Positions 19,731-57,708 of a stretch of 64,000 bases of DNA are shown in pieces. The position numbers and the translations under genes were made by a program. Each line of letters starts with the position of its first letter. The first letter of the stretch is position 1. This DNA is from a virus: IMG/VR virus record IMGVR_UViG_3300046323_000234, one strand, 5' to 3'. The notes below the pieces were generated by a model. That model was not told where the DNA came from. It ran no database searches and worked only from the letters and a program-made list of their open reading frames with translations.

Positions 19731-19974
19731 AACAACATATTATAAAAGACTATAAACTAAAAGTCCAACATGATTTTCTCGTACTAGAGGCGGTATTTAT
19801 ATCATCACAAATTCAAAATATTTGGATTCAATATTAAATGAAATTGTTTTTAATAATTTCACAAAAGAAGAATATATTGAGATGTTATCAAATATGCGTG
19901 AAAATCCAAATGAACAGACTTCAAGTTATAAAACGGCTATTAATGGTTTATTCGTTAACGTTTTAAAATTATAA
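19727..19974 (+). pseudogene. Frameshifted member of the small paralog family
   Basis: One T missing at GATTTTCTC (about 19772); restoring it gives MKQHII...HDFSRTRGGIYIITNSKYLDSILNEIVFNNFTKEEY...LKL. Confidence 0.45.
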
Positions 19975-19975
19975 T

Positions 19976-20680
19976 ATGGTACTTAGAATTATTAAATGTA
20001 ATAATATATTGTTAAAATCAATATCTGGGATTATTCCTAGTGATATTTTAAGTCCAAATGGTAAATTTATTTATATTCAGTTATCAACTAATAGTTTATA
20101 TTTAGATGAGATTTTACGGATGATTTTAAATAATTTAACCAACGAAGAAAATTCGGATTTGATGGGGTGTATAAAAACATATAAGTTTATTAGCGAAAAT
20201 AATCATTATCAAAAGAGATTACTACATGGTTATTATTGTAAAATAATTGAATTGTAATATATTACCAGATGATAAAAATAGTTAATAATTGCTCAAGTTA
20301 TTTAAATCCAATCCTAAATCAGATTCAAGATTCGTTATTACCAATTGAAATATTTGATTATATTGGTTATGAAATTTATATGAAAATTGGAAAACAGTTG
20401 TTAAATGTAAATGGTGGTAAAATATATTTAGAAACAGCTAGATATTATATAATAAATGATTTGATATATGTTAAATGCGTTTTAAATGAATAGTTTAAAT
20501 GTTGATATTAAATTTAAGTGCTGTAAACATGTTCAAGATATTATTATATTGATAGATAAAAACCTTTTAATAGATGAAAGATCAGATTGGTTTGATGTTA
20601 CCAGAATCTATTATCGTGAAAAATTAGAAAATAAATTCAATGTGATTGGAGATTTAATTTATTTGGAAATAACCGATTAA
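19976..20680 (+). CDS. Three small ORFs, divergent members of the paralog family at 27.9-30.9 kb
   Basis: SLYLDEILRMILNNLTNEE; CSSYLNPILNQIQDSLLPIE; CCKHVQDIIILIDKNLLIDE. Confidence 0.6.
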
Positions 20681-23763: not shown

Positions 23764-24876
23764 ATGGAAAACGAATTTGAAGACTCATTGGATGAATTAT
23801 TAGATCATTATAATTCAACACATGAAAAAAAGGGATCAGGTGTAATCCCAAGAGAAGAACTAATGAAAAAGTTCTTTGTACCACAAAATGCCACAGAAGA
23901 ATTTAGAGTGGTTAAACAACCATCTAAAGACGGTGATAAACTTTCATACACCGAGACTGCTCACTTTCACGAAATCAAAGTAGGTGAAAAATATAGAAAA
24001 GCTTATTGCTTTAAACACAATGATGACACCAGATGTCCAATGTGTGAAATGGAAGGATTTCTTTTAGGTAAACAATTGAAAAAGAAGTTTGCTGACATGA
24101 CTCCAGAAGAAAAAGAAAAAAATGATAAGATTTATAAATTGTCATTAAAATTCAAAGCAAAAAAATTCTATATCATCAAAGGTCTTGATAGAGGTCAAGA
24201 AAAAGATGGTGTTAAATTCTGGAGATTTAAACACAATTATAAAATGCAAGGTGTTTATGATAAACTGGTAGCAGCAGTTAAATTTTCAAAACAAGAAAAT
24301 AATATCATTTATACTGATGTACTTAATGGTGTCGATCTACAAATTAATGTAGCTGATGATAAAATGCCAAACGGCAAAAAATTCAAAACAGTTACATCAA
24401 TCATGGCCAAATCCAAAACATCTCCTTTAAGTTTGGATGATGCAAAACAAAAAGCATGGTCAACAGACACACTAAAGTGGACAGATGTATTTAAACCATT
24501 GAAAGCACCACATGTGGATGAAATTAAGTTCCTAGAACTTGCAGCTAAAGGTGTAGCACCATTCTATGATGAAAAAGTTAAAAGATGGTATGCACCAGAA
24601 AATCCAGATTTGGAAGCTAAAATGAACGAAAGAACTCAAAATCTTGAAGCCAAAGAAGAAGAATCATCTTTTGGTGGTGATAATGAGTTTGAGGATGAAA
24701 TTAGTCAATTAATGAACGATAAAAAAGCTGCATCAAAAACTGCTGATATTGAATCAATGCCAACATCACAAGTCGCAACCAAAAAAGCATCAACCAAAGA
24801 AGCAGTTAAAGAAACTGTTAAAACTCTGGATGATAATGATGGTCTAGGCTTTGATGATGATGACCTACCGTTCTAA
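23764..24876 (+). CDS. T4 gp32-like single-stranded DNA-binding protein
   Basis: H...C-x8-CPMC Zn site, GVKFWRF, acidic tail ending DDDDLPF; upstream of recombinase. Confidence 0.8.
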   Translation: MENEFEDSLDELLDHYNSTHEKKGSGVIPREELMKKFFVPQNATEEFRVVKQPSKDGDKLSYTETAHFHEIKVGEKYRKAYCFKHNDDTRCPMCEMEGFLLGKQLKKKFADMTPEEKEKNDKIYKLSLKFKAKKFYIIKGLDRGQEKDGVKFWRFKHNYKMQGVYDKLVAAVKFSKQENNIIYTDVLNGVDLQINVADDKMPNGKKFKTVTSIMAKSKTSPLSLDDAKQKAWSTDTLKWTDVFKPLKAPHVDEIKFLELAAKGVAPFYDEKVKRWYAPENPDLEAKMNERTQNLEAKEEESSFGGDNEFEDEISQLMNDKKAASKTADIESMPTSQVATKKASTKEAVKETVKTLDDNDGLGFDDDDLPF

Positions 24877-24969: not shown

Positions 24970-25497
24970 ATGAAAACTTTTAAAAATAAAGATGATTTTA
25001 AAACCAATATAATCAAATATATTTTGATTGGTATTGAAAATAATACTTTTAAAGTAGAATTTGATTATCCAAGTGGTAACCTATTAAATTTATCAAATGA
25101 TTATATATTCAGTTGTAACTTTTATGAATATGATGATCATTCATTTAACATTCAATATACTTTTTCAAATATTGCAGATTGTTTAAATCTAACAAAAGAT
25201 GAATATAATTTAATCATGTATGCTTGCTATGAACATACCTATAGTAACGATATAATGAATGGATTATTGGATTTGATTAAAGAAAATGAAGATAATTCAC
25301 ATTTTGATGATTCATTGAATAATGATGATGACTTATTAAAAATGGTTGATCTTATTGATAATAAATGGAATGAATATAGAAATATTACTAATAATAATGA
25401 TGCTTGGACTTTTAAAGAGTGGTTAAAAAGTAAATACGATAATAGGAATGACGTTTTTGGATTGGATGAAGCAAAGGATGATGACTTGCCCTTTTAA
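24970..25497 (+). CDS. Acidic hypothetical protein ending in an SSB-like tail
   Basis: C-terminus DDDLPF. Confidence 0.7.
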   Translation: MKTFKNKDDFKTNIIKYILIGIENNTFKVEFDYPSGNLLNLSNDYIFSCNFYEYDDHSFNIQYTFSNIADCLNLTKDEYNLIMYACYEHTYSNDIMNGLLDLIKENEDNSHFDDSLNNDDDLLKMVDLIDNKWNEYRNITNNNDAWTFKEWLKSKYDNRNDVFGLDEAKDDDLPF

Positions 25498-26590: not shown

Positions 26591-26634
26591 AATATATTGG
26601 ATTTGACCAAACCAATCAAATCCAATATATTTTT
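26591..26634 (+). terminator. Rho-independent terminator
   Basis: AATATATTGGATTTGA...TCAAATCCAATATATT followed by T. Confidence 0.7.
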
Positions 26635-26644
26635 CACAATTTAA

Positions 26645-27865
26645 ATGGAAGATAATATAATATACAAAATTTATGGATTATATGCTTTAGATGATGAATC
26701 TAAAATAATTAGATATGTTGGATATACAAAAAGAACGATTAAAAAAAGATTATCATCACATATTCACCAATCCAAAGAACGTGATACACATAAAGATCGA
26801 TGGATAAGAAAAAATAATCGTAATATTGATGTTATATTAATTGAAGATAATATAAATACGTATGAATTGGTTTTAGAACGTGAAATATATTGGATTGATT
26901 ATTATAAGAAAATTGGGAATGATTTAGTAAATAGTACTGCTGGTGGTGATGGCACTAAAGGTAGATCACCATCAATGGCTGAACGTGAGCGTTCTAGAAA
27001 GTTAAATTTAGGTAAAAAATTATCTGAAGAACATAAAGCTAAAATAGGTAAGTCACATAAAGGTAAAATACTATCATTAGAACATAAGCAAAAATTAAAA
27101 GATAAAAAACAAAATGTTAGTGATGAAACCAAACAGAAAATGTCGATTATGGCCGTTAGGAGATTTTTGAGAGAGAAAAATATATTTGTTGATGATTTAT
27201 TAAATGATGAAATAGTTCACATAAAACAATTAATAATTGAATATGATAATTTAATAAAACAATTGGTAAAAACCCCAAATGATGATATCGAGTTTTATAA
27301 AAATAAGAATTTTGAAAATAAATTAAATTATGAATTAAAAAAATCCGAAGAGTATAAATTAGGAATTTTAACAAATAATGCAATAGCAATAAAAATAAAA
27401 GAAGATAAATTAAATATAATCAGAGAGAGAGAATTAAAAAAGAATTTTTTAATTCAAGAAAAAATTAATAAACAGCAATTAATTAAAACCGAAAGAGAAT
27501 TAAAGAAACAAAAAGAATATGAATCCAGACAAAAATTAATTGATTCGGGTGATCTATATCAAATGGTTAATTCACTTGGTAAATTGATTTGGGTTAGAAA
27601 AACGTCTGAACAAACCAAACAAAAACTTAGAGAAGCTAATCTTGGTAAGAAATATAGTGAAGAAACAAAAAGAAAACATTCTGAAACCAATTTTAGGATT
27701 AGAAATGGTAAAAAGGGTGTAAAATTAACCGAAGGTGATATTAGAGAAATTAGAAGATTATGCGATAATGAGAAAACAACTAAAGAATTGACAGAAATAT
27801 ATAATATGGATTATTCAACAATCAGAAAAATAGTCCTAAGAAAATTATGGTCAGACATTAAATAA
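26645..27865 (+). CDS. Free-standing GIY-YIG homing endonuclease with NUMOD3 repeats and C-terminal HTH
   Basis: KIYGL...YVGYT, R-x3-H, REIYWI, N-STAGGDG; GKKLSEEHKAKIG repeats. Confidence 0.85.
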   Translation: MEDNIIYKIYGLYALDDESKIIRYVGYTKRTIKKRLSSHIHQSKERDTHKDRWIRKNNRNIDVILIEDNINTYELVLEREIYWIDYYKKIGNDLVNSTAGGDGTKGRSPSMAERERSRKLNLGKKLSEEHKAKIGKSHKGKILSLEHKQKLKDKKQNVSDETKQKMSIMAVRRFLREKNIFVDDLLNDEIVHIKQLIIEYDNLIKQLVKTPNDDIEFYKNKNFENKLNYELKKSEEYKLGILTNNAIAIKIKEDKLNIIRERELKKNFLIQEKINKQQLIKTERELKKQKEYESRQKLIDSGDLYQMVNSLGKLIWVRKTSEQTKQKLREANLGKKYSEETKRKHSETNFRIRNGKKGVKLTEGDIREIRRLCDNEKTTKELTEIYNMDYSTIRKIVLRKLWSDIK

Positions 27866-27866
27866 C

Positions 27867-30862
27867 ATGCAATCAAATATAATTTGGCTCAACACAATAC
27901 ATTATGAATGGTATTCACAGCTTGTTCCAACAAACATTGAATCATGTGATTATGTGAAAGATATTTTAACTGTAATTATAAATGATAACTTTGAATATAA
28001 AGAACTCCAACAATTATCTTATTTTGAAAAGATTAATTATTCTAGGGGGTGTAGATTTATAAATAAATCATTAAATTTCTATATAAATGCAATATAACAT
28101 AGCTTGTAAATATATATTGGATATACATCAATTAATAATTAATAATCTAACAGTTGAAGAAATTGATTTGTTTGAAGATGATTATCAACCCGATGGTAAA
28201 TATAAATATTATCCATTTTTTACAATTTCTAAAATATTGTATAGTGAACATACCTATTATGCTGGAATGCAGACAACATATATATTTAAATTATATGATA
28301 TAGAATGAAGAAGCCTTGTAAATATATATTAGAAATTCATCAATTAATTGTTGATAATCTAATAGATATTGAAATATTTGGATTGGATGAAACACTGGAT
28401 AAATATTATTTATCCTCAAGTGAATTACCATCAATCCATATAAGCAATATTGAATATATATGGAAATTTAATAATGGCATCTATTTAGGTGTTAAACAAA
28501 AATAAGAACATGAAGCCTTGTAAATACATAATAGACATACATTCAAATATCGTTACTAATCATTTCATTGATGAAGAATTTATTGGCATTAAAAATAAAT
28601 ATCATTGGGTAGAAGATCAAATTATTTGCGATTATATTTTTGATTGTGGAATAATATATAGATATAATTGGACAACGAATGAATTAACATTAACAACATA
28701 TGAATAAAGTTTGTAATCACATATTAATAATACACTCTACAATTGTAAAAACATTTTTGCAAGATGATTTTAAGGAATTAAAATGCAACAGTGAAACATA
28801 TTACGATATGAACATAAAATCAATTGTCGTTAATTATTGGTTTAAATCATTGGATATAAGATATAAATATTATTACAACAGCGAATTAGTTTCACTAAGA
28901 TCACCAGATATTATAAAATGATAAACAACATAGAGAAAACAATATATATGAAACATTCTCATAATTCAAATCTAAGATTGCACATGGAATCTGAATGTTG
29001 TTTTTATGTAAATGAAATTTTGCCAAATATATTAAAAAATATTACATTTATGGAATTGTCTGATTTTACATATTATAAAAATCATGCATATAAAAGATAT
29101 ATGAATAAATTAATTTATATTTATTAGTTATGAAACTTAAACCATCTTGTGATTATATATTAGAAATTCATGGTATTATTGTTAAAAATATAACAACAGA
29201 GGAATTATTTGATTTTGTTGACATAATATCACCAATCCTATATAGTCCAAATGATTTTGGATTAATTAAAAAATATTATTTTATGAAAATTGGATTAGTT
29301 TATGATAGAGAATTTGATTATGGTTAAACCATGTAATCATATATTAGAAATACATCAGTTAATTATTAATACATTATTAGATGATGAAATAAATGAATTA
29401 GCGGATGCACATTCACCAATCATAAATAATCCATATTTAAAAATGAATTATTGTTATTTCTTTTTCACAAAGTTTTATATCAAATACAGTAGAGAATTTA
29501 TATTTTAACAATGCAATATCAGGATAGACCATCGCAATATATTAAAGAAATTCATGATATGATTTATGGAAATCTAACCAAAGATGAATTATATGATTGG
29601 ATAAAATTATTAGAAACTGATCCAAGTTATTATGTACTGCCAATGTTTCAAAATGCAATTGATATTTATATTTTAAAATGTGATCATTTAGTATAACCAA
29701 TGAAACCAGCTTGTAAATATATATTAGAAATTCATCAATTGATTGTTGATAATTTATTGATTATTGATGAAGTATTACCACTATTTGATGGTAATTATAT
29801 TGGCGACTATAAATATTTAACATCAATTAGTTCAATCAAATATATAATATTAATTATTCCTTCAAGGAAATATATAATATACCAAACGAATGAATATTAA
29901 ATCAGCTTGTAATTATATATTAGAAATACATCAACAAATTATTGATAATATAACTATTGATGAGGTTAAGGAGATATGTACGATATTGAATGATGATATT
30001 CAGGTTACTAATTTTATATTAAAAGCCTATTACATCGAGATTTATCCAATCCAATATAGATTTAGTTGGAGAACGTTTAACTATAAACAACAATAAAATA
30101 ATGAGTAAATCTAGATTAATATACAAGTATTATTATTATGAGCATGAAACATGTTGTAATTATATAATTAAAATTGTTGATACTATTTTTGATAATATGA
30201 ATTATGCTGAAGTTAATGAACTTGTTCAAGAACGTAGATTATTAATGGATTGGGACATAACAAAAGAGAATGTATTTTTGATTTGTTATTTGCGTTATAT
30301 AGAAACAACATATCCGTTTTAATATGAAAGTTGCTTGTGACTACATATTGGAAATACATCAATTAATTGTCGATAATTTAACATCTGGCGAGATAGTATT
30401 ATTTATGTCAAGATTGGAAAAGATAAATGCTATTCAAAATCGGATATTATTATATCCAATCCAATATAAATATTTTTCACTAATTTCAGTGACAAATCAA
30501 AAAATTAAGATTGAATATGTTAAGACATTAATATATTAAACAAAATGCAATATAACATACCTTGTAAACATATATTAGAAATTCATCAATTAATTGTTGA
30601 TAATTTAACTGGTGATGAAATTTATAAAATAGCTGATGATGGTATTGAAATTCGTTTAGGGCAAAAACATTCATCAATATCATTAACAATAAATAATATA
30701 TATTATATTCCAGATAGTGTGTTTTGTAATTATGCAAAACAATTTAATATTAAAACCATAACAAATGAAGAAGAACAAAACAAAAACATTGCTGGTGGAT
30801 GCCACATATTTATTAAAAAGGTCATTAACTGGTTCAAAAAACACATACGTTGGTGGAGATAA
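27867..30862 (+). CDS. Tandem array of 14 small paralogous ORFs (27867, 28087, 28305, 28510, 28700, 28918, 29130, 29320, 29511, 29700, 29890, 30101, 30324, 30545)
   Basis: Shared motif C-x-[YH]-I-L-E-I-H-x-x-I-[VI]-x-N-L-x-x-x-E followed by unrelated C-termini. Confidence 0.85.
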
Positions 30863-31826
30863 TAATGTTGGTATTTATACATTCATAACTACATTAAGAA
30901 AATTAATTAATGAAACCAAAGTAAATAGGGTTGTATTATGTTGGGATGGTGAGAATTCTGGGAAGCGCAGATATTTGATTTCTAGCGACTACAAAGCCAA
31001 TCGAAAGGGAAAGAGTTGGTATAATAAAATTCAGTTAACTGAGGCTGAAATTAAGTACCTAGAAAGGGATAAACAATCAGAGCTATATCAAAAAGTTAGA
31101 ATACAAAACTATTGTGAGGAATTATTCATTAGACAAGTTGAGATTGACGAAGTTGAAGCTGATGATATGATTGCACAATACGTAATAAATTTTTCAGAGA
31201 TAGAAGATATTATTGTATACACAAATGATAAAGATTATATTCAATTATTAGATTATAACATATCTGTATATCTTAATTTTATTGGTTTAATAATTGATAA
31301 AAATGATTTCTTCATGCATTTTCCATATCATTATAAAAATTCATTAACCATTAAAATAATGTGTGGTGATAGTGGTGATAATGTAAAGGGAATTAAAGGA
31401 TTTGCTGAACCAACATTCATGTCTTTATTTCCAGATGCAAAAGATAAGCATTTAATGGTAAAGGATGTTATTAGATTGGCCAAACAAATCCAAAAAGATA
31501 GAATTGATAATAAGCAAAAACCATTAAAGGTTATTGAGAATATAATAAACGGAAAAGATATTTATATTTTAAATAAACAATTGGTGGATCTATCATCACC
31601 ATTATTAAATGAAGATGAGAAGAATATTATATTAGATTTAGCATTGCCATTAGATTCTGAAAATAGAGGTTCAAAAAATTTAATTAGATTAATGAATGAA
31701 GATAAATTTTTATCAAATTACAATGGAAATAGATCTGATTTCGCTTCATATGTTGAGCCATTTTATATTATAATCTCAAGTGAGAAAAAATTATTTGAAG
31801 AATATTCAAAAAATATAAAATATTAA
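30765..31826 (+). CDS. 5'-3' exonuclease (T4 RNase H / Pol I 5' domain family)
   Basis: LLVDA, WDG, YKANR, EADD, DKD, GDSGDNVKGI. Confidence 0.92.
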   Translation: MKKNKTKTLLVDATYLLKRSLTGSKNTYVGGDNNVGIYTFITTLRKLINETKVNRVVLCWDGENSGKRRYLISSDYKANRKGKSWYNKIQLTEAEIKYLERDKQSELYQKVRIQNYCEELFIRQVEIDEVEADDMIAQYVINFSEIEDIIVYTNDKDYIQLLDYNISVYLNFIGLIIDKNDFFMHFPYHYKNSLTIKIMCGDSGDNVKGIKGFAEPTFMSLFPDAKDKHLMVKDVIRLAKQIQKDRIDNKQKPLKVIENIINGKDIYILNKQLVDLSSPLLNEDEKNIILDLALPLDSENRGSKNLIRLMNEDKFLSNYNGNRSDFASYVEPFYIIISSEKKLFEEYSKNIKY

Positions 31827-31850
31827 ATTGCGAGTTATATTAAAGTAGAT

Positions 31851-31858
31851 TAGATTTG
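31851..31858 (+). promoter_or_regulatory. Bacteroidota-type -7 promoter element TAnnTTTG
   Basis: TAGATTTG about 32 nt before ATG 31891, with TTG upstream at about 31828. Confidence 0.45.
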
Positions 31859-31890
31859 TATTATTAATTAAACCTATAAACAAAACAACA

Positions 31891-32544
31891 ATGTTACCAT
31901 TAACAAAAAGAGTAGAAAATAATTTTAAATTAGGAATTTATCTAGTAAACGAATCTGATTCTAACATTTCATCGGAAACAATTACGGAAAGAATTTTTTG
32001 TGCTGACCAGTATTCACCAGCAGTTAGATCCAATGTGGATATTAAGAGTTATTATACCACAATTCTAAAGGGTATTAATAAAGTATTTGGTAGAGATTCA
32101 TATAATCATAATATTAATGGTTATAATGTATTATCTAGGTATGAGAAAGCTGAAGCATTATATGGTAACGAATATAATTATGGAAATTCTAAATTATATA
32201 GACCAAGTATTAAAAATATTTTTATTGATGATAAAATGAATGTGGGTTCTAAAATAGAAATATCTGGAACACCTATTAAGATTGGTCTTTATCTAAATGA
32301 TGCACCAATCATTGAAAGAATTATTTACACAAGAAAATATAACCCATCTGTTAGATTCTCAAAAGAATTATACGATTTCGTATTGGATACCGTATCCGAT
32401 ATTTCGGAAGACCTTAGAGCAAAGGATATTATATATCAGTTCAATGAACAATATAACCAATCCAATAAAGGTACATTAATCCCCACACAGATTGGTGAAT
32501 TTAGCAGAGAGAAAAGATTAGAATTATTGAACAAAGTTTATTAA
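31891..32544 (+). CDS. Hypothetical protein in replication block
   Basis: Internally duplicated IERI...Y(S/N)P-x-VR motif. Confidence 0.7.
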   Translation: MLPLTKRVENNFKLGIYLVNESDSNISSETITERIFCADQYSPAVRSNVDIKSYYTTILKGINKVFGRDSYNHNINGYNVLSRYEKAEALYGNEYNYGNSKLYRPSIKNIFIDDKMNVGSKIEISGTPIKIGLYLNDAPIIERIIYTRKYNPSVRFSKELYDFVLDTVSDISEDLRAKDIIYQFNEQYNQSNKGTLIPTQIGEFSREKRLELLNKVY

Positions 32545-32616
32545 AATTTATTTTTAATAAATCAATAATTTTTTAAAACATCTTCCTATTTATATTCACC
32601 CTCTAACAAAAAAAAC

Positions 32617-57100: not shown

Positions 57101-57265
57101 AAACTTCAACCAATGGGTAAAGTGGCTGTGGATGTAAATTCAGATCCAATAGAAGATAATTTTATGGTTATAAAAAAAGGAAATGATTATGAAATCCATT
57201 TATATAAAGAAGGATATCTTAGAAAAGTAAAACAAATTAATACTGAACCAATATTTGCAGACTAA
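54101..57265 (+). CDS. Family B DNA polymerase with 3'-5' exonuclease
   Basis: FDIETTG, YNGENFD, YLLDD, DFASLYPS, KILNNSLFG, VTDG. Confidence 0.93.
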   Translation: MIRKEELADVQKFLEGSSDKKYIVAIEGYSYYNYVECVIHDPEKGKYIEKMEYKPFIWLKDLPSNGINIYKDKEKRQEALDKYGLTIKKLKTGTQRRLEQGYKFIIHSTKSFNAIVSFFKDENIDIYSEQYRDLFFAVKPEEQFMIQNGIRLFKGYEKYNEVYKLTFDIETTGLLPENSRVFMIGIKDNKGFEHVCKIKKPNDDDEERKIIKQFFYVYNKLKPAIITTYNGENFDFEFIFKRCELLGLDYINDITTTLNPNKSIRRKENATVKYGNETGHYTQTIAWGYNIIDTIHAAKKTAAINKEIKNVKLKYLCQFEDIAKPNRMYINDGGNIFKYWINNKYFLINTSNNNYLQIPDDLQDIVKECINNGTNPLEHIDIKSIIDNSEEKYNSIITGSEIVDRYLLDDLWETEMLDNQYNESSFLLAKLIPTTFSRVCTMGTAAVWNLIMSEWSYINDIAIPIPDVGGKSKNEKYVAISEESGQEDGEEVEVDEFAVPAREESDSFDKISGGLARAYRIGYAESILKLDFASLYPSIQLTHGVFPNIDITNQLKKILLYLKITRDEYKYLSNDTSLDDISRQFYKTKQLPIKILNNSLFGALGSGVAFRWSDNDVAYRITTTGRVYLRQLIDWFYKRQFLPLLAVTDGVNFSIPSMVDIDINLNKLDKMIPINDIIYIDKNGKEHKGVNAYVEKYNTEVMNGDFMKIDHDGEWKSTLILSRINYANLTYESIDKKSGKVKPPKIKLTGNTIKSNTMPEYIEDYINVAMKHILENKPDLFIEHYYEYLAKIYYMQIPLKKIANKGRVKMSIKSYKNRGLNKNGKEKGKQAHMELLINANIPYEVGDLIYYVNTGTVKSHGDSKIIKDKVTKELRMASEMIDGKQLEQNPTMLGKYNIAKYIDNFNKRVEKILVGFSENVRNTLLKSDPTLREYYTDLDLKLYCHEKDNIEESMFLEQKEIEFWQKTGFNPYLITDVFKLPEGVDLMYNEYAKVINYINNKLQPMGKVAVDVNSDPIEDNFMVIKKGNDYEIHLYKEGYLRKVKQINTEPIFAD

Positions 57266-57708
57266 TGCTTTGTGGTTATATAAATCAAATATATGATATA
57301 ATTCACCAATCATTAATTGATGATGAATTTTCATATTCAGAAAAAATAAAATCGGATATGGATGATTTATTAAACTCACTTAAAGTTGTTGTAGTTCCAG
57401 AATATCCGAGTTCAATATTTTACGTAAACGATAAAGATGTTGTTTTTGAATATGAACATAAAATTAATTTCAATTTTAGATCAGTTTGGGGCAATGATAT
57501 TATATTATTTAATTCACCAGACAGTCCATTAGGCTTTTTATTAGATAATAATAAATCCAATTCTGTTATATATAGAGTTTTGGAAAAAATTATTCGGAGA
57601 ATGGAATTCCAAGAATTTGATATGCTAGTTGTTAATAGGATTGATTATATTGAAATGGATAGATCATGGGAATTTATTAAATCAAAATTAGCAAACAATT
57701 CACTTTAA
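57265..57708 (+). CDS. Hypothetical protein with the paralog-array N-terminal motif
   Basis: MLCGYINQIYDIIHQSLIDDEF. Confidence 0.6.
   Translation: MLCGYINQIYDIIHQSLIDDEFSYSEKIKSDMDDLLNSLKVVVVPEYPSSIFYVNDKDVVFEYEHKINFNFRSVWGNDIILFNSPDSPLGFLLDNNKSNSVIYRVLEKIIRRMEFQEFDMLVVNRIDYIEMDRSWEFIKSKLANNSL

What the first reader, a model, noticed from the sequence alone, without database searches (positions are those of the whole stretch)
27867..30862. Tandem array of 14 micro-proteins with a constant motif and hypervariable C-termini
Seen: 14 abutting or overlapping ORFs of about 60-105 aa at about 200-bp periodicity. They share C-x-[YH]-I-L-E-I-H-Q-L-I-V-D-N-L-x3-E, and in the best copies this is a near-identical ~50-nt DNA unit (CTTGTAAATATATATTAGAAATTCATCAATTAATTGTTGATAAT at about 28315, 29710, 30561; variants at about 28103, 29907, 30335). 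The ~40 aa downstream are Tyr/Ile/Lys-rich and not alignable by eye. The array is inserted into the core replication operon between a GIY-YIG endonuclease and the 5'-3' exonuclease. Inference: a diversified adaptor or inhibitor library in which the constant helix docks on one partner and the variable part recognises different targets such as host defence proteins. The DNA repeat could also act as a recombination handle for gain, loss and shuffling.
Basis: partly seen in the sequence, partly recalled or inferred. Interest (0 to 1): 0.9.

Follow-up and report, generated by a model that had tools for sequence, protein, structure and literature searches.

The report
Expanded orphan micro-protein family in phage
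An uncultured phage with T4-type replication genes carries at least 24 copies of a ~65-residue protein found nowhere else: the first ~25 residues are kept constant, the rest changes about as fast as silent sites yet stays translatable, which suggests a fast-evolving host-interaction gene family of unknown function.

Summary
At 27867-30862, 14 head-to-tail ORFs (61-105 aa) cover 99% of the + strand; shuffled sequence gives 0.08 such ORFs. All begin with a C-x-Y-I-L-E-I-H-x-x-I-V-x-N-L-T-x-x-E module (mean 43% identity, up to 76%). Their tails are no more alike than shuffled tails.

The family is larger than reported. Four more copies lie at 19774-20680, and seven sit in another part of the same 171-kb genome (L015). 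A 147-aa ORF at 57265 may carry the module too.

No homologue appeared in 1.8 billion representative proteins, IMG/VR, JGI contigs, Pfam, PHROGs or PDB. The closest relative genome keeps the flanking genes but lacks the family.

In the youngest paralogue pair the module has dN/dS 0.10 and the tail 1.5, with equal synonymous divergence. So the tails diverge in place after tandem duplication.

AlphaFold gives two helices plus a four-stranded sheet, with no fold match.

The module's DNA similarity is mostly protein conservation plus codon bias, so the "recombination handle" idea is weak.

Function is unproven. My best guess is a diversifying binder family made with the replication genes. Other readers of this scan noted the family on this genome only.

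The parts
27867..28097 (+). family member 1 (76 aa; long N-terminal extension, most divergent)
   Evidence: ORF; HMM E 5e-10
28087..28308 (+). family member 2 (73 aa)
28305..28505 (+). family member 3 (66 aa; reference copy of the 44-nt DNA unit)
28510..28707 (+). family member 4 (65 aa from the ATG; a GTG at 28489 would give 72 aa)
28700..28921 (+). family member 5 (73 aa)
28918..29127 (+). family member 6 (69 aa; N-terminal extension, Cys-Cys, no His)
29130..29327 (+). family member 7 (65 aa)
   Evidence: tail weakly similar to member 8 (z 4.1)
29302..29508 (+). family member 8 (68 aa; an internal Met at codon 7 would give 62 aa)
29511..29696 (+). family member 9 (61 aa; Ser replaces the Cys)
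29700..29900 (+). family member 10 (66 aa)
29890..30096 (+). family member 11 (68 aa; folded in model 1)
30101..30322 (+). family member 12 (73 aa; N-terminal extension)
30324..30539 (+). family member 13 (71 aa)
30545..30862 (+). family member 14 (105 aa; its last 32 codons overlap the exonuclease gene out of frame)
19774..20680 (+). second mini-array: three intact divergent members (19976-20257, 20269-20493, 20486-20680) and one copy at 19774-19974 with no canonical start before its module
   Evidence: HMM E 1e-13 to 9e-5; sequences
57265..57708 (+). probable longer carrier of the module: 147-aa orphan ORF just after the family-B DNA polymerase, with N-terminus C-G-Y-I-N-Q-I-Y-D-I-I-H-Q-S-L-I-D-D-E-F
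   Evidence: module-only HMM E 0.006 among 764 window ORFs; no homologues
26645..27865 (+). upstream flank: free-standing GIY-YIG/NUMOD3 homing endonuclease, absent from the relative L004
30765..31826 (+). downstream flank: 5'-3' exonuclease (FEN/RNase H type), 55% identical to its counterpart in L004
23569..23577 (+). nearest upstream copy of the promoter-like motif CTATTTATA; the next copy is at 32586, with none in between

Best explanation
Shown. This is a lineage-specific multigene family of small soluble proteins (about 61-76 aa). It was built by repeated tandem duplication, with at least 24 copies in three arrays of one 171-kb phage genome. Each copy is probably one mini-domain: an N-terminal two-helix hairpin (C-x-Y-I-L-E-I-H-x-x-I-V-x-N-L-T-x-x-E) followed by a beta-sheet tail. 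After duplication the hairpin stays under purifying selection. The tail takes amino-acid changes and indels at about the silent-site rate or faster, and selection keeps every tail open and of similar length.

Inferred. The 14-gene array has no internal gaps or promoter-like motif. It sits between the UvsX-like recombinase and the flap exonuclease, so it is most likely transcribed and translationally coupled with the replication and recombination genes during infection. By analogy with other fast-evolving viral gene families, the members are binders whose constant hairpin gives the fold, and perhaps a common contact. Their variable sheet surfaces would engage different, changing host proteins in takeover or anti-defence.

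Confidence by layer. That this is a real, duplicating, diversifying coding family: about 0.9. The host-interaction role: about 0.4.
For: - Coding: 14 ORFs tile 99.3% of the region, against 0.08 expected.
- Family: profile hits of E 1e-8 to 1e-23 for the 14 copies, plus 4 more in the window and 7 in L015. An L015 protein is listed on the same 171,483-bp contig.
- Orphan: profile search of 1.84 billion representatives found only this genome's copies and two repetitive false positives. Nothing turned up in IMG/VR or JGI contigs, Pfam or PHROGs, or PDB sequences.
- Lineage-specific insertion: the relative L004 keeps gp32-like, UvsX-like, exonuclease and helicase in order. It has a 67-aa and a 230-aa gene where the array sits, and nothing where the mini-array sits.
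- Selection: for the pair L015 3937/4152 the module has dN 0.05, dS 0.48 and the tail dN 0.43, dS 0.28. The non-synonymous difference between tail and module has p=1.3e-5; the synonymous difference has p=0.71.
- Fold: the AlphaFold model of an L015 member has pLDDT 79.8 and pTM 0.62, with two helices and four strands. Model 1 gives the same two helices.
- Properties: soluble, pI 4.6-9.8, no long hydrophobic stretch.
- Co-transcription: no CTATTTATA motif lies between 23569 and 32586, and gene gaps are -26 to +5 nt.
Against: - No functional evidence of any kind exists: no homologue, no fold match (best Z 4.2), no expression data.
- A tail dN/dS of 1.5 is not significantly above 1 (p=0.63), so relaxed constraint is not excluded.
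- It rests on one reliable pair of 42 codons; tail alignments for window pairs are too poor to trust.
- The conserved residues are mostly hydrophobic, so no common docking surface is demonstrated.
- All assemblies found are 100% identical, so gain and loss of copies between strains was not seen.
- The CTATTTATA motif's timing class is unknown.
Confidence: 0.45

Rival explanations
1. Neutral or selfish expansion. The helical hairpin alone carries one shared, modest function, or none, and simply folds. Duplicates accumulate because plastic slots of large phage genomes tolerate them. The tails drift under weak constraint that only keeps a beta-rich, open frame. There is no target-specific diversification.
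For: - Tail dN/dS is not significantly above 1.
- Tail pairs are indistinguishable from shuffled sequence.
- Conserved positions are core-like hydrophobics and a helix cap.
- One copy (19774-19974) has lost a canonical start.
Against: - All 24 aligned tails (29-78 aa, about 40-47 typically) stay open in DNA where about 1 codon in 10 would be a stop by composition.
- Lengths are similar, and a Tyr strand is kept in >=90% of copies.
- Twenty-four or more retained copies in a compact genome argue for a benefit.
Confidence: 0.2
2. The constant N-terminus is a targeting propeptide, analogous to the T4 capsid targeting sequence. It would load an arsenal of small proteins into the prohead. The prohead protease would remove it after the I-L-E, and the bodies would be injected with the DNA to meet host defences on entry.
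For: - In T-even phages the internal proteins share only a 10-residue N-terminal targeting sequence, cut after L/I-x-E. They are otherwise diverse anti-restriction proteins (PMC3012670, PMC9026906).
- Here three members read M-K-x-x-C-x-Y-I-L-E, with Ile at position 8 and Glu at position 10.
- 12 of 24 members have [LI]-x-E at that place.
- The module may also head a 147-aa protein.
Against: - The distance of the motif from the N-terminus varies from 9 to more than 30 residues.
- Half the members lack the Glu.
- Conservation continues 15 residues past the would-be cut. It forms helix 1, a turn and the helix 2 cap of a predicted folded domain, unlike a disposable 10-residue tag.
- The array sits inside the replication/recombination gene block and is tightly coupled to it.
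- Most members are acidic.
- No prohead protease or virion data are available.
Confidence: 0.12
3. A RiPP-like precursor library: a conserved leader recognised by one modifying enzyme, followed by hypervariable core peptides, as in prochlorosin-type systems (recalled from general knowledge, not tested against a reference).
For: The conserved N-terminus with hypervariable C-terminus, in many tandem copies, is the pattern of such precursor families. The module-versus-tail selection contrast fits.
Against: - No modifying enzyme, protease or transporter family lies beside any of the three arrays.
- Tails of 40-47 residues are long for core peptides and are not Cys/Ser/Thr-rich.
- No double-Gly type cleavage motif is present.
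- The protein is predicted to fold as one domain.
Confidence: 0.04
4. The functional element is the repeated ~50-nt DNA or RNA unit, acting as a recombination handle, protein-binding site or regulatory signal, and the ORFs are secondary.
For: - Three copies share 43 of 44 nt.
- A subset of four copies shows a nominal excess of identical codons.
- The unit contains the palindrome CAATTAATTG.
Against: - Codon usage alone predicts 60% identical codons, against 72% observed.
- Differences fall at third positions.
- The palindrome is broken by synonymous changes in other copies.
- There is no Rfam hit.
- The ORF tiling is far beyond chance.
Confidence: 0.04

Closest known systems
T-even phage internal proteins (IPI, IPII, IPIII, Alt) with the capsid targeting sequence
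   Same: Both are sets of small phage proteins that share only a short conserved N-terminal segment containing an [LI]-x-E. Both have otherwise unrelated, fast-changing bodies that serve the arms race with host defence (PMC3012670, PMC9026906).
   Different: - The conserved part here is about 25 residues and forms a structured helical hairpin.
- It is not always at the extreme N-terminus, and half the copies lack the Glu.
- There are 14+4+7 tandem copies, against a few genes in T4.
- The location is among replication genes.
- No sequence homology was tested, and packaging is unknown.
Virus multigene families expanded by tandem duplication (poxvirus 'genomic accordions', ASFV MGFs, giant-virus paralogue arrays; recalled from general knowledge)
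   Same: Head-to-tail lineage-specific paralogue arrays in variable genome slots, with rapid amino-acid divergence after duplication and a presumed host-interaction role.
   Different: - This one is in a tailed phage.
- The units are only about 200 bp, with no intergenic DNA.
- There is a sharp intragenic split between a constrained module and a free tail.
- No copy-number polymorphism has been observed so far.
Hyperplastic (plastic) regions of T4-type genomes
   Same: Clusters of small orphan ORFs lie between conserved core replication genes and differ between related phages. A free-standing GIY-YIG homing endonuclease sits next to the cluster.
   Different: Plastic regions usually hold unrelated ORFs. 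Here one family fills the slot 14 times and recurs at two other loci.
RelE/ParE-type small alpha-alpha-beta toxins
   Same: The predicted order of elements is the same: two N-terminal helices, then an antiparallel sheet.
   Different: The match is only weak (1wmi_C, Z 3.5, rmsd 4.1 over 58 residues, tied with dozens of unrelated hits). There is no sequence similarity, no antitoxin partner and no catalytic residues identified.

Membership tests
T4-type capsid-targeted internal proteins | targeting sequence occupies the first ~10 residues of the protein | tested here: inconclusive
   The motif Cys is at residues 4-8 in most of the 24 members, but 8 carry N-terminal extensions, up to 43 residues before the module.
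T4-type capsid-targeted internal proteins | L/I-x-E protease site ending the propeptide | tested here: inconclusive
   [LI]-x-E is at the equivalent place in 12 of 24 members. Four have Asp, and eight have neither an acidic residue nor the required L/I (listing).
T4-type capsid-targeted internal proteins | no conservation beyond the propeptide | tested here: not met
   Conservation runs about 15 residues past the putative cut, through I-x-x-x-I, N-L-T and x-x-E.
T4-type capsid-targeted internal proteins | presence in virions and processing by the prohead protease | not testable with these tools
   No virion proteome is available, and no prohead protease gene was seen in the window.
Tandem-duplication multigene family under diversifying evolution | head-to-tail paralogues, lineage-specific | tested here: met
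   Three arrays exist. The family is absent from relative L004/G001 and from all databases searched.
Tandem-duplication multigene family under diversifying evolution | elevated non-synonymous rate in part of the gene after duplication | tested here: met
   For the L015 3937/4152 pair, tail dN/dS is 1.53 against 0.10 for the module, and synonymous divergence is equal. It is not significantly above 1.
Tandem-duplication multigene family under diversifying evolution | copy-number variation between strains | tested here: inconclusive
   All other contigs recovered are 100% identical over the arrays, so no divergent strains were available.
Integron-type gene cassettes | attC-like imperfect hairpin between cassettes | tested here: not met
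   Intergenic gaps are -26 to +5 nt, and no recurrent inverted repeats lie between the genes.
RiPP precursor peptides | adjacent maturation enzyme and a leader cleavage motif | tested here: not met
   The neighbours are a homing endonuclease, an exonuclease, an RlaP nucleotidyltransferase, an AAA ATPase, DUF2201 and orphans. No Gly-Gly type site appears in the alignments.
   No F-box or related Pfam family matched at E<=0.1 for any of 24 members. The His of the proposed Cys-x6-His pair is Leu, Val, Ile or Gln in 9 of 24.
RelE/ParE toxin fold | significant structural superposition | tested here: inconclusive
   Z is 3.5, tied with many unrelated chains. Foldseek gives E>2.

The most novel reading that the evidence does not exclude
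The phage encodes a germline-like repertoire of adaptors. One constant helical hairpin plugs into a single hub (a phage or host machine, or the prohead core). Some 25 hypervariable beta-sheet tails, renewed by tandem duplication and fast replacement, each capture a different host protein. The module is portable and also heads a 147-aa protein. This would be a protein-level counterpart, in a phage, of F-box or adaptor expansions or of the T4 targeting-sequence arsenal.
Probability: 0.2. Interest if true: 0.85.

Novelty: new variant of a known kind. Interest (0 to 1): 0.6.

Why it matters
One orphan family makes up a sizeable share of a phage's genes, with a sharp boundary inside each gene between a frozen module and a free-running tail. 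That makes it a natural experiment in how viruses generate binding diversity without a dedicated mutator.

If the tails target host defences, the arrays are a ready-made catalogue of about 25 small inhibitors built on one scaffold. If the module is a docking or packaging tag, it could serve as a tool for delivering proteins.

Even if the function stays unknown, the family is a clean case for studying duplication-divergence dynamics in phage plastic regions.

Tried and rejected
- Nearest sequenced phage: megablast of 27000-32000 against 50,697 phage records gave no match.
- Related loci: the search for related loci with the family alignment failed or confirmed nothing. A degenerate DNA pattern for C-[KNDE]-[YH]-I-L-E-I-H-x-x-I gave 0 hits in IMG/VR. 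It gave 7 hits in JGI contigs, all chance.
- False positives: the two long hits of the exhaustive search (P0014, P0015) are repetitive proteins, not relatives.
- Fold searches: model 1 (pLDDT 65) and model 2 (pLDDT 79.8) were run against PDB by Foldseek and VIA-align, and model 2 also against BFVD. Nothing scored better than Z 4.2 or E 0.5. The PDB sequence profile search gave only a spurious 0.00086 hit to a ParM fusion.
- Homodimer prediction: two copies with alignment A3 gave no verdict (score 0.01). This is reported here only.
- Metal site: a Cys/His site is rejected, because the His position is often hydrophobic and no second ligand pair is conserved.
- Other readings: no sigma-70-like promoter or terminator excess in the region (90 found vs 83 expected). 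No Rfam family. No attC-like hairpins.
- Adjacency: neighbouring copies do not have more similar tails than distant ones (mean z 0.37 vs 0.29).
- dN/dS for window pairs: computed, but not relied on because the tail alignments are arbitrary.
- The 147-aa ORF at 57265 has no homologues to show whether its module is ancestral.
Full report
**What is there**

The window is AT-rich (22-31% G+C), and nearly all long ORFs are on the + strand. Between 27867 and 30862 lie 14 ATG-started ORFs of 61-76 aa, with the last at 105 aa. They are packed head to tail with gaps of -26 to +5 nt and use all three frames. They cover 99.3% of the stretch. In 500 shuffles of the same bases the mean number of ORFs of >=60 aa was 0.08, and the opposite strand has none. 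These are genes, not chance frames.

The last copy owes its extra length to a 98-nt out-of-frame overlap with the exonuclease gene, which starts at 30765.

**The family**

All 14 share C-x-Y-I-L-E-I-H-x-x-I-V-x-N-L-T-x-x-E near the N-terminus. Two Ile are invariant, and the Cys and one Tyr in the tail are at least 90% conserved.

Over 21 module residues the mean identity is 43%, with a maximum of 76%. The remaining 29-78 residues average 23.6% identity, the same as shuffled tails at 23.1%. Leave-one-out tail profiles beat shuffled decoys for only 3 of the 14.

Faint traces remain. There is a shared hydrophobic-x-Tyr strand, often S-N-I-x-Y. A few pairs also keep weak similarity, for example the neighbours 29130 and 29302 (z 4.1).

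**More copies than reported**

A profile of the 14 also finds four copies at 19774-20680. Three are intact, and one has no canonical start before its module. The module-only profile also matches the N-terminus of a 147-aa orphan ORF at 57265-57708, just after the family-B polymerase (E 0.006 among 764 window ORFs).

The exhaustive profile search of 1.84 billion representative proteins returned this window's copies, two repetitive false positives and two further small proteins. Those two lie in a 9.2-kb contig, L015, from the same samples. L015 carries seven members, interrupted by a 229-aa orphan gene and followed by an RlaP nucleotidyltransferase, an AAA ATPase and a DUF2201 protein. An L015 member is recorded on the same 171,483-bp contig as the window's proteins. 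So there are at least 24 aligned members in one genome.

**Orphan status**

- Nothing matched in Pfam or PHROGs for any of the 24 members, or in PDB sequences.
- Nothing matched in IMG/VR or JGI metagenome contigs by peptide or DNA pattern.
- The locus has no near match among 50,697 phage records.

**Genome context and relatives**

The flanks are a gp32-like single-strand-binding protein (35% identical to its counterpart in L004), a UvsX-like recombinase, a GIY-YIG/NUMOD3 homing endonuclease, then the array. After the array come a 5'-3' exonuclease, a 217-aa gene, a DnaB-type helicase and ribonucleotide reductase.

The closest genome found is L004, a 265-kb IMG/VR contig whose exonuclease is 55% identical. 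It keeps this order, but between UvsX and the exonuclease it has only a 67-aa and a 230-aa gene. In the same way, the homologues of the 203-aa and 60-aa genes that flank the mini-array are adjacent in L004. The family profile finds nothing in that complete genome.

So the arrays are lineage-specific fillings of variable slots between core genes. Every other assembly of this phage that I could fetch is 100% identical over the arrays. Copy-number variation between strains therefore could not be assessed.

**How it evolves**

Two adjacent L015 members (3937 and 4152) are still 77% identical in DNA over their whole length.

| Part of the gene | dN | dS | dN/dS |
|---|---|---|---|
| Module | 0.05 | 0.48 | 0.10 |
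| Tail | 0.43 | 0.28 | 1.53 |

- Non-synonymous change differs between tail and module at p=1.3e-5.
- Synonymous change does not differ (p=0.71).
- The tail ratio is not significantly above 1 (p=0.63).

This shows that tails diverge in place after tandem duplication, by replacements and small indels. They are not imported from elsewhere. It also shows that the module is under strong purifying selection.

The composition would give roughly one stop per ten codons, yet all tails remain open and of similar length. Some selection therefore acts on them. Its nature, diversifying or merely permissive, is not settled.

**The DNA repeat**

At positions where two copies have the same residue, 601 codon pairs are identical, against 501.5 expected from the genome's own codon usage. 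The best eight copies differ at 45% of synonymous sites. The repeat is therefore mainly a shadow of protein conservation in a strongly biased code.

Four non-adjacent copies (28305, 29130, 29700, 30545) show a nominal excess of identical codons (p 0.002-0.014). None survives correction for 91 pairs. Occasional gene conversion or unequal crossing-over inside the module is possible but not shown.

**Structure**

- AlphaFold on member 29890 gave two confident helices (residues 8-19 and 23-32) and a weak hairpin (pLDDT 65).
- On the L015 4152 member it gave pLDDT 79.8 and pTM 0.62, with helices 5-18 and 21-27 and four strands.
- No library gave a meaningful fold match; the best was Z 4.2.
- The proteins are soluble, with pI from 4.6 to 9.8.

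The conserved residues form a hydrophobic stripe plus an N-L-T-x-x-E turn and cap, which is what a folding core looks like. The His is replaced by Leu, Val, Ile or Gln in nine members, so a Cys/His metal site is unlikely.

**Expression context**

A strict motif, CTATTTATA, occurs 13 times in the window. Twelve copies lie in short intergenic gaps 11-25 nt before start codons, including before the helicase and the block that holds the polymerase. None lies between 23569 and 32586.

The array therefore most likely rides on the same transcript as the gp32-like, UvsX-like and exonuclease genes. The overlapping stops and starts suggest translational coupling. The motif's timing class is unknown. No Shine-Dalgarno-like sequence precedes the starts.

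**Reading**

Shown: a real, orphan, tandemly expanding family with a constrained helical module and free-running tails.

Inferred: the family consists of binders made during replication whose variable surfaces meet changing host proteins.

The T4 internal-protein analogy is attractive. Those proteins share only a 10-residue N-terminal targeting sequence cut after L/I-x-E (PMC3012670, PMC9026906), and three members here read M-K-x-x-C-x-Y-I-L-E. Against it:
- the offset from the N-terminus varies;
- half the copies lack the Glu;
- conservation runs well past the would-be cut;
- the genes sit in the replication block.

Drift, RiPP-like and DNA-element readings are weaker, for the reasons given under the rivals.

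**Earlier notes of this scan**

Other readers flagged the same family on overlapping windows of this genome only. Their count of about 27 copies agrees with my 14+4+7 plus one possible. Their T4 targeting-sequence comparison gave me the two papers, which I then read.

Noticed in passing
window 24970-25497 and 24604-24876: A 175-aa orphan ORF between the gp32-like gene and the UvsX-like gene ends in D-D-D-L-P-F. The gp32-like protein itself ends the same way (D-D-D-D-L-P-F), as does its L004 homologue. From memory, this resembles the C-terminal tip of bacterial SSB. The orphan may compete for, or borrow, SSB-tip partners.
   Followed up: partly
window 2582, 20702, 22133, 23569, 32586, 39196, 43211, 48516, 51794, 57718, 59716, 60784, 61426: The strict motif CTATTTATA recurs 13 times, almost always in a short gap 11-25 nt before a start codon. 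It precedes replication genes as well as large orphan genes. It is a likely phage promoter element of unknown timing class.
   Followed up: partly
window 26591-26631: A 19-bp-stem inverted repeat sits in the gap between the UvsX-like gene and the homing endonuclease gene, overlapped by two sigma-70-like promoter matches (26603-26631, 26633-26661). It may be a terminator or regulatory hairpin insulating the endonuclease gene.
   Followed up: no
L004 11706-13952: The DnaB-type helicase of the relative is 748 aa, against 493 aa in the window. The extra ~250 residues after the Walker A region look like an intein. This was not tested.
   Followed up: no
window 28342-28351 and 30588-30597: The codons for Q-L-I-V in the best copies spell the perfect palindrome CAATTAATTG, within a longer imperfect palindrome (29-nt arms, 83% complementary). 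Synonymous changes break it in other copies, so it is probably incidental.
   Followed up: partly
L015 3061-3750: A 229-aa orphan gene interrupts the third array, with no Pfam match. On the opposite strand a 281-aa orphan lies upstream, and a KTSC-domain gene precedes the array.
   Followed up: partly
window 19774-19974: The first unit of the mini-array keeps a recognisable module (S-K-Y-L-D-S-I-L-N-E-I-V-F-N-N-F-T-K-E-E) but has no ATG, GTG or TTG before it. It is either a decaying copy or uses an unusual start.
   Followed up: partly
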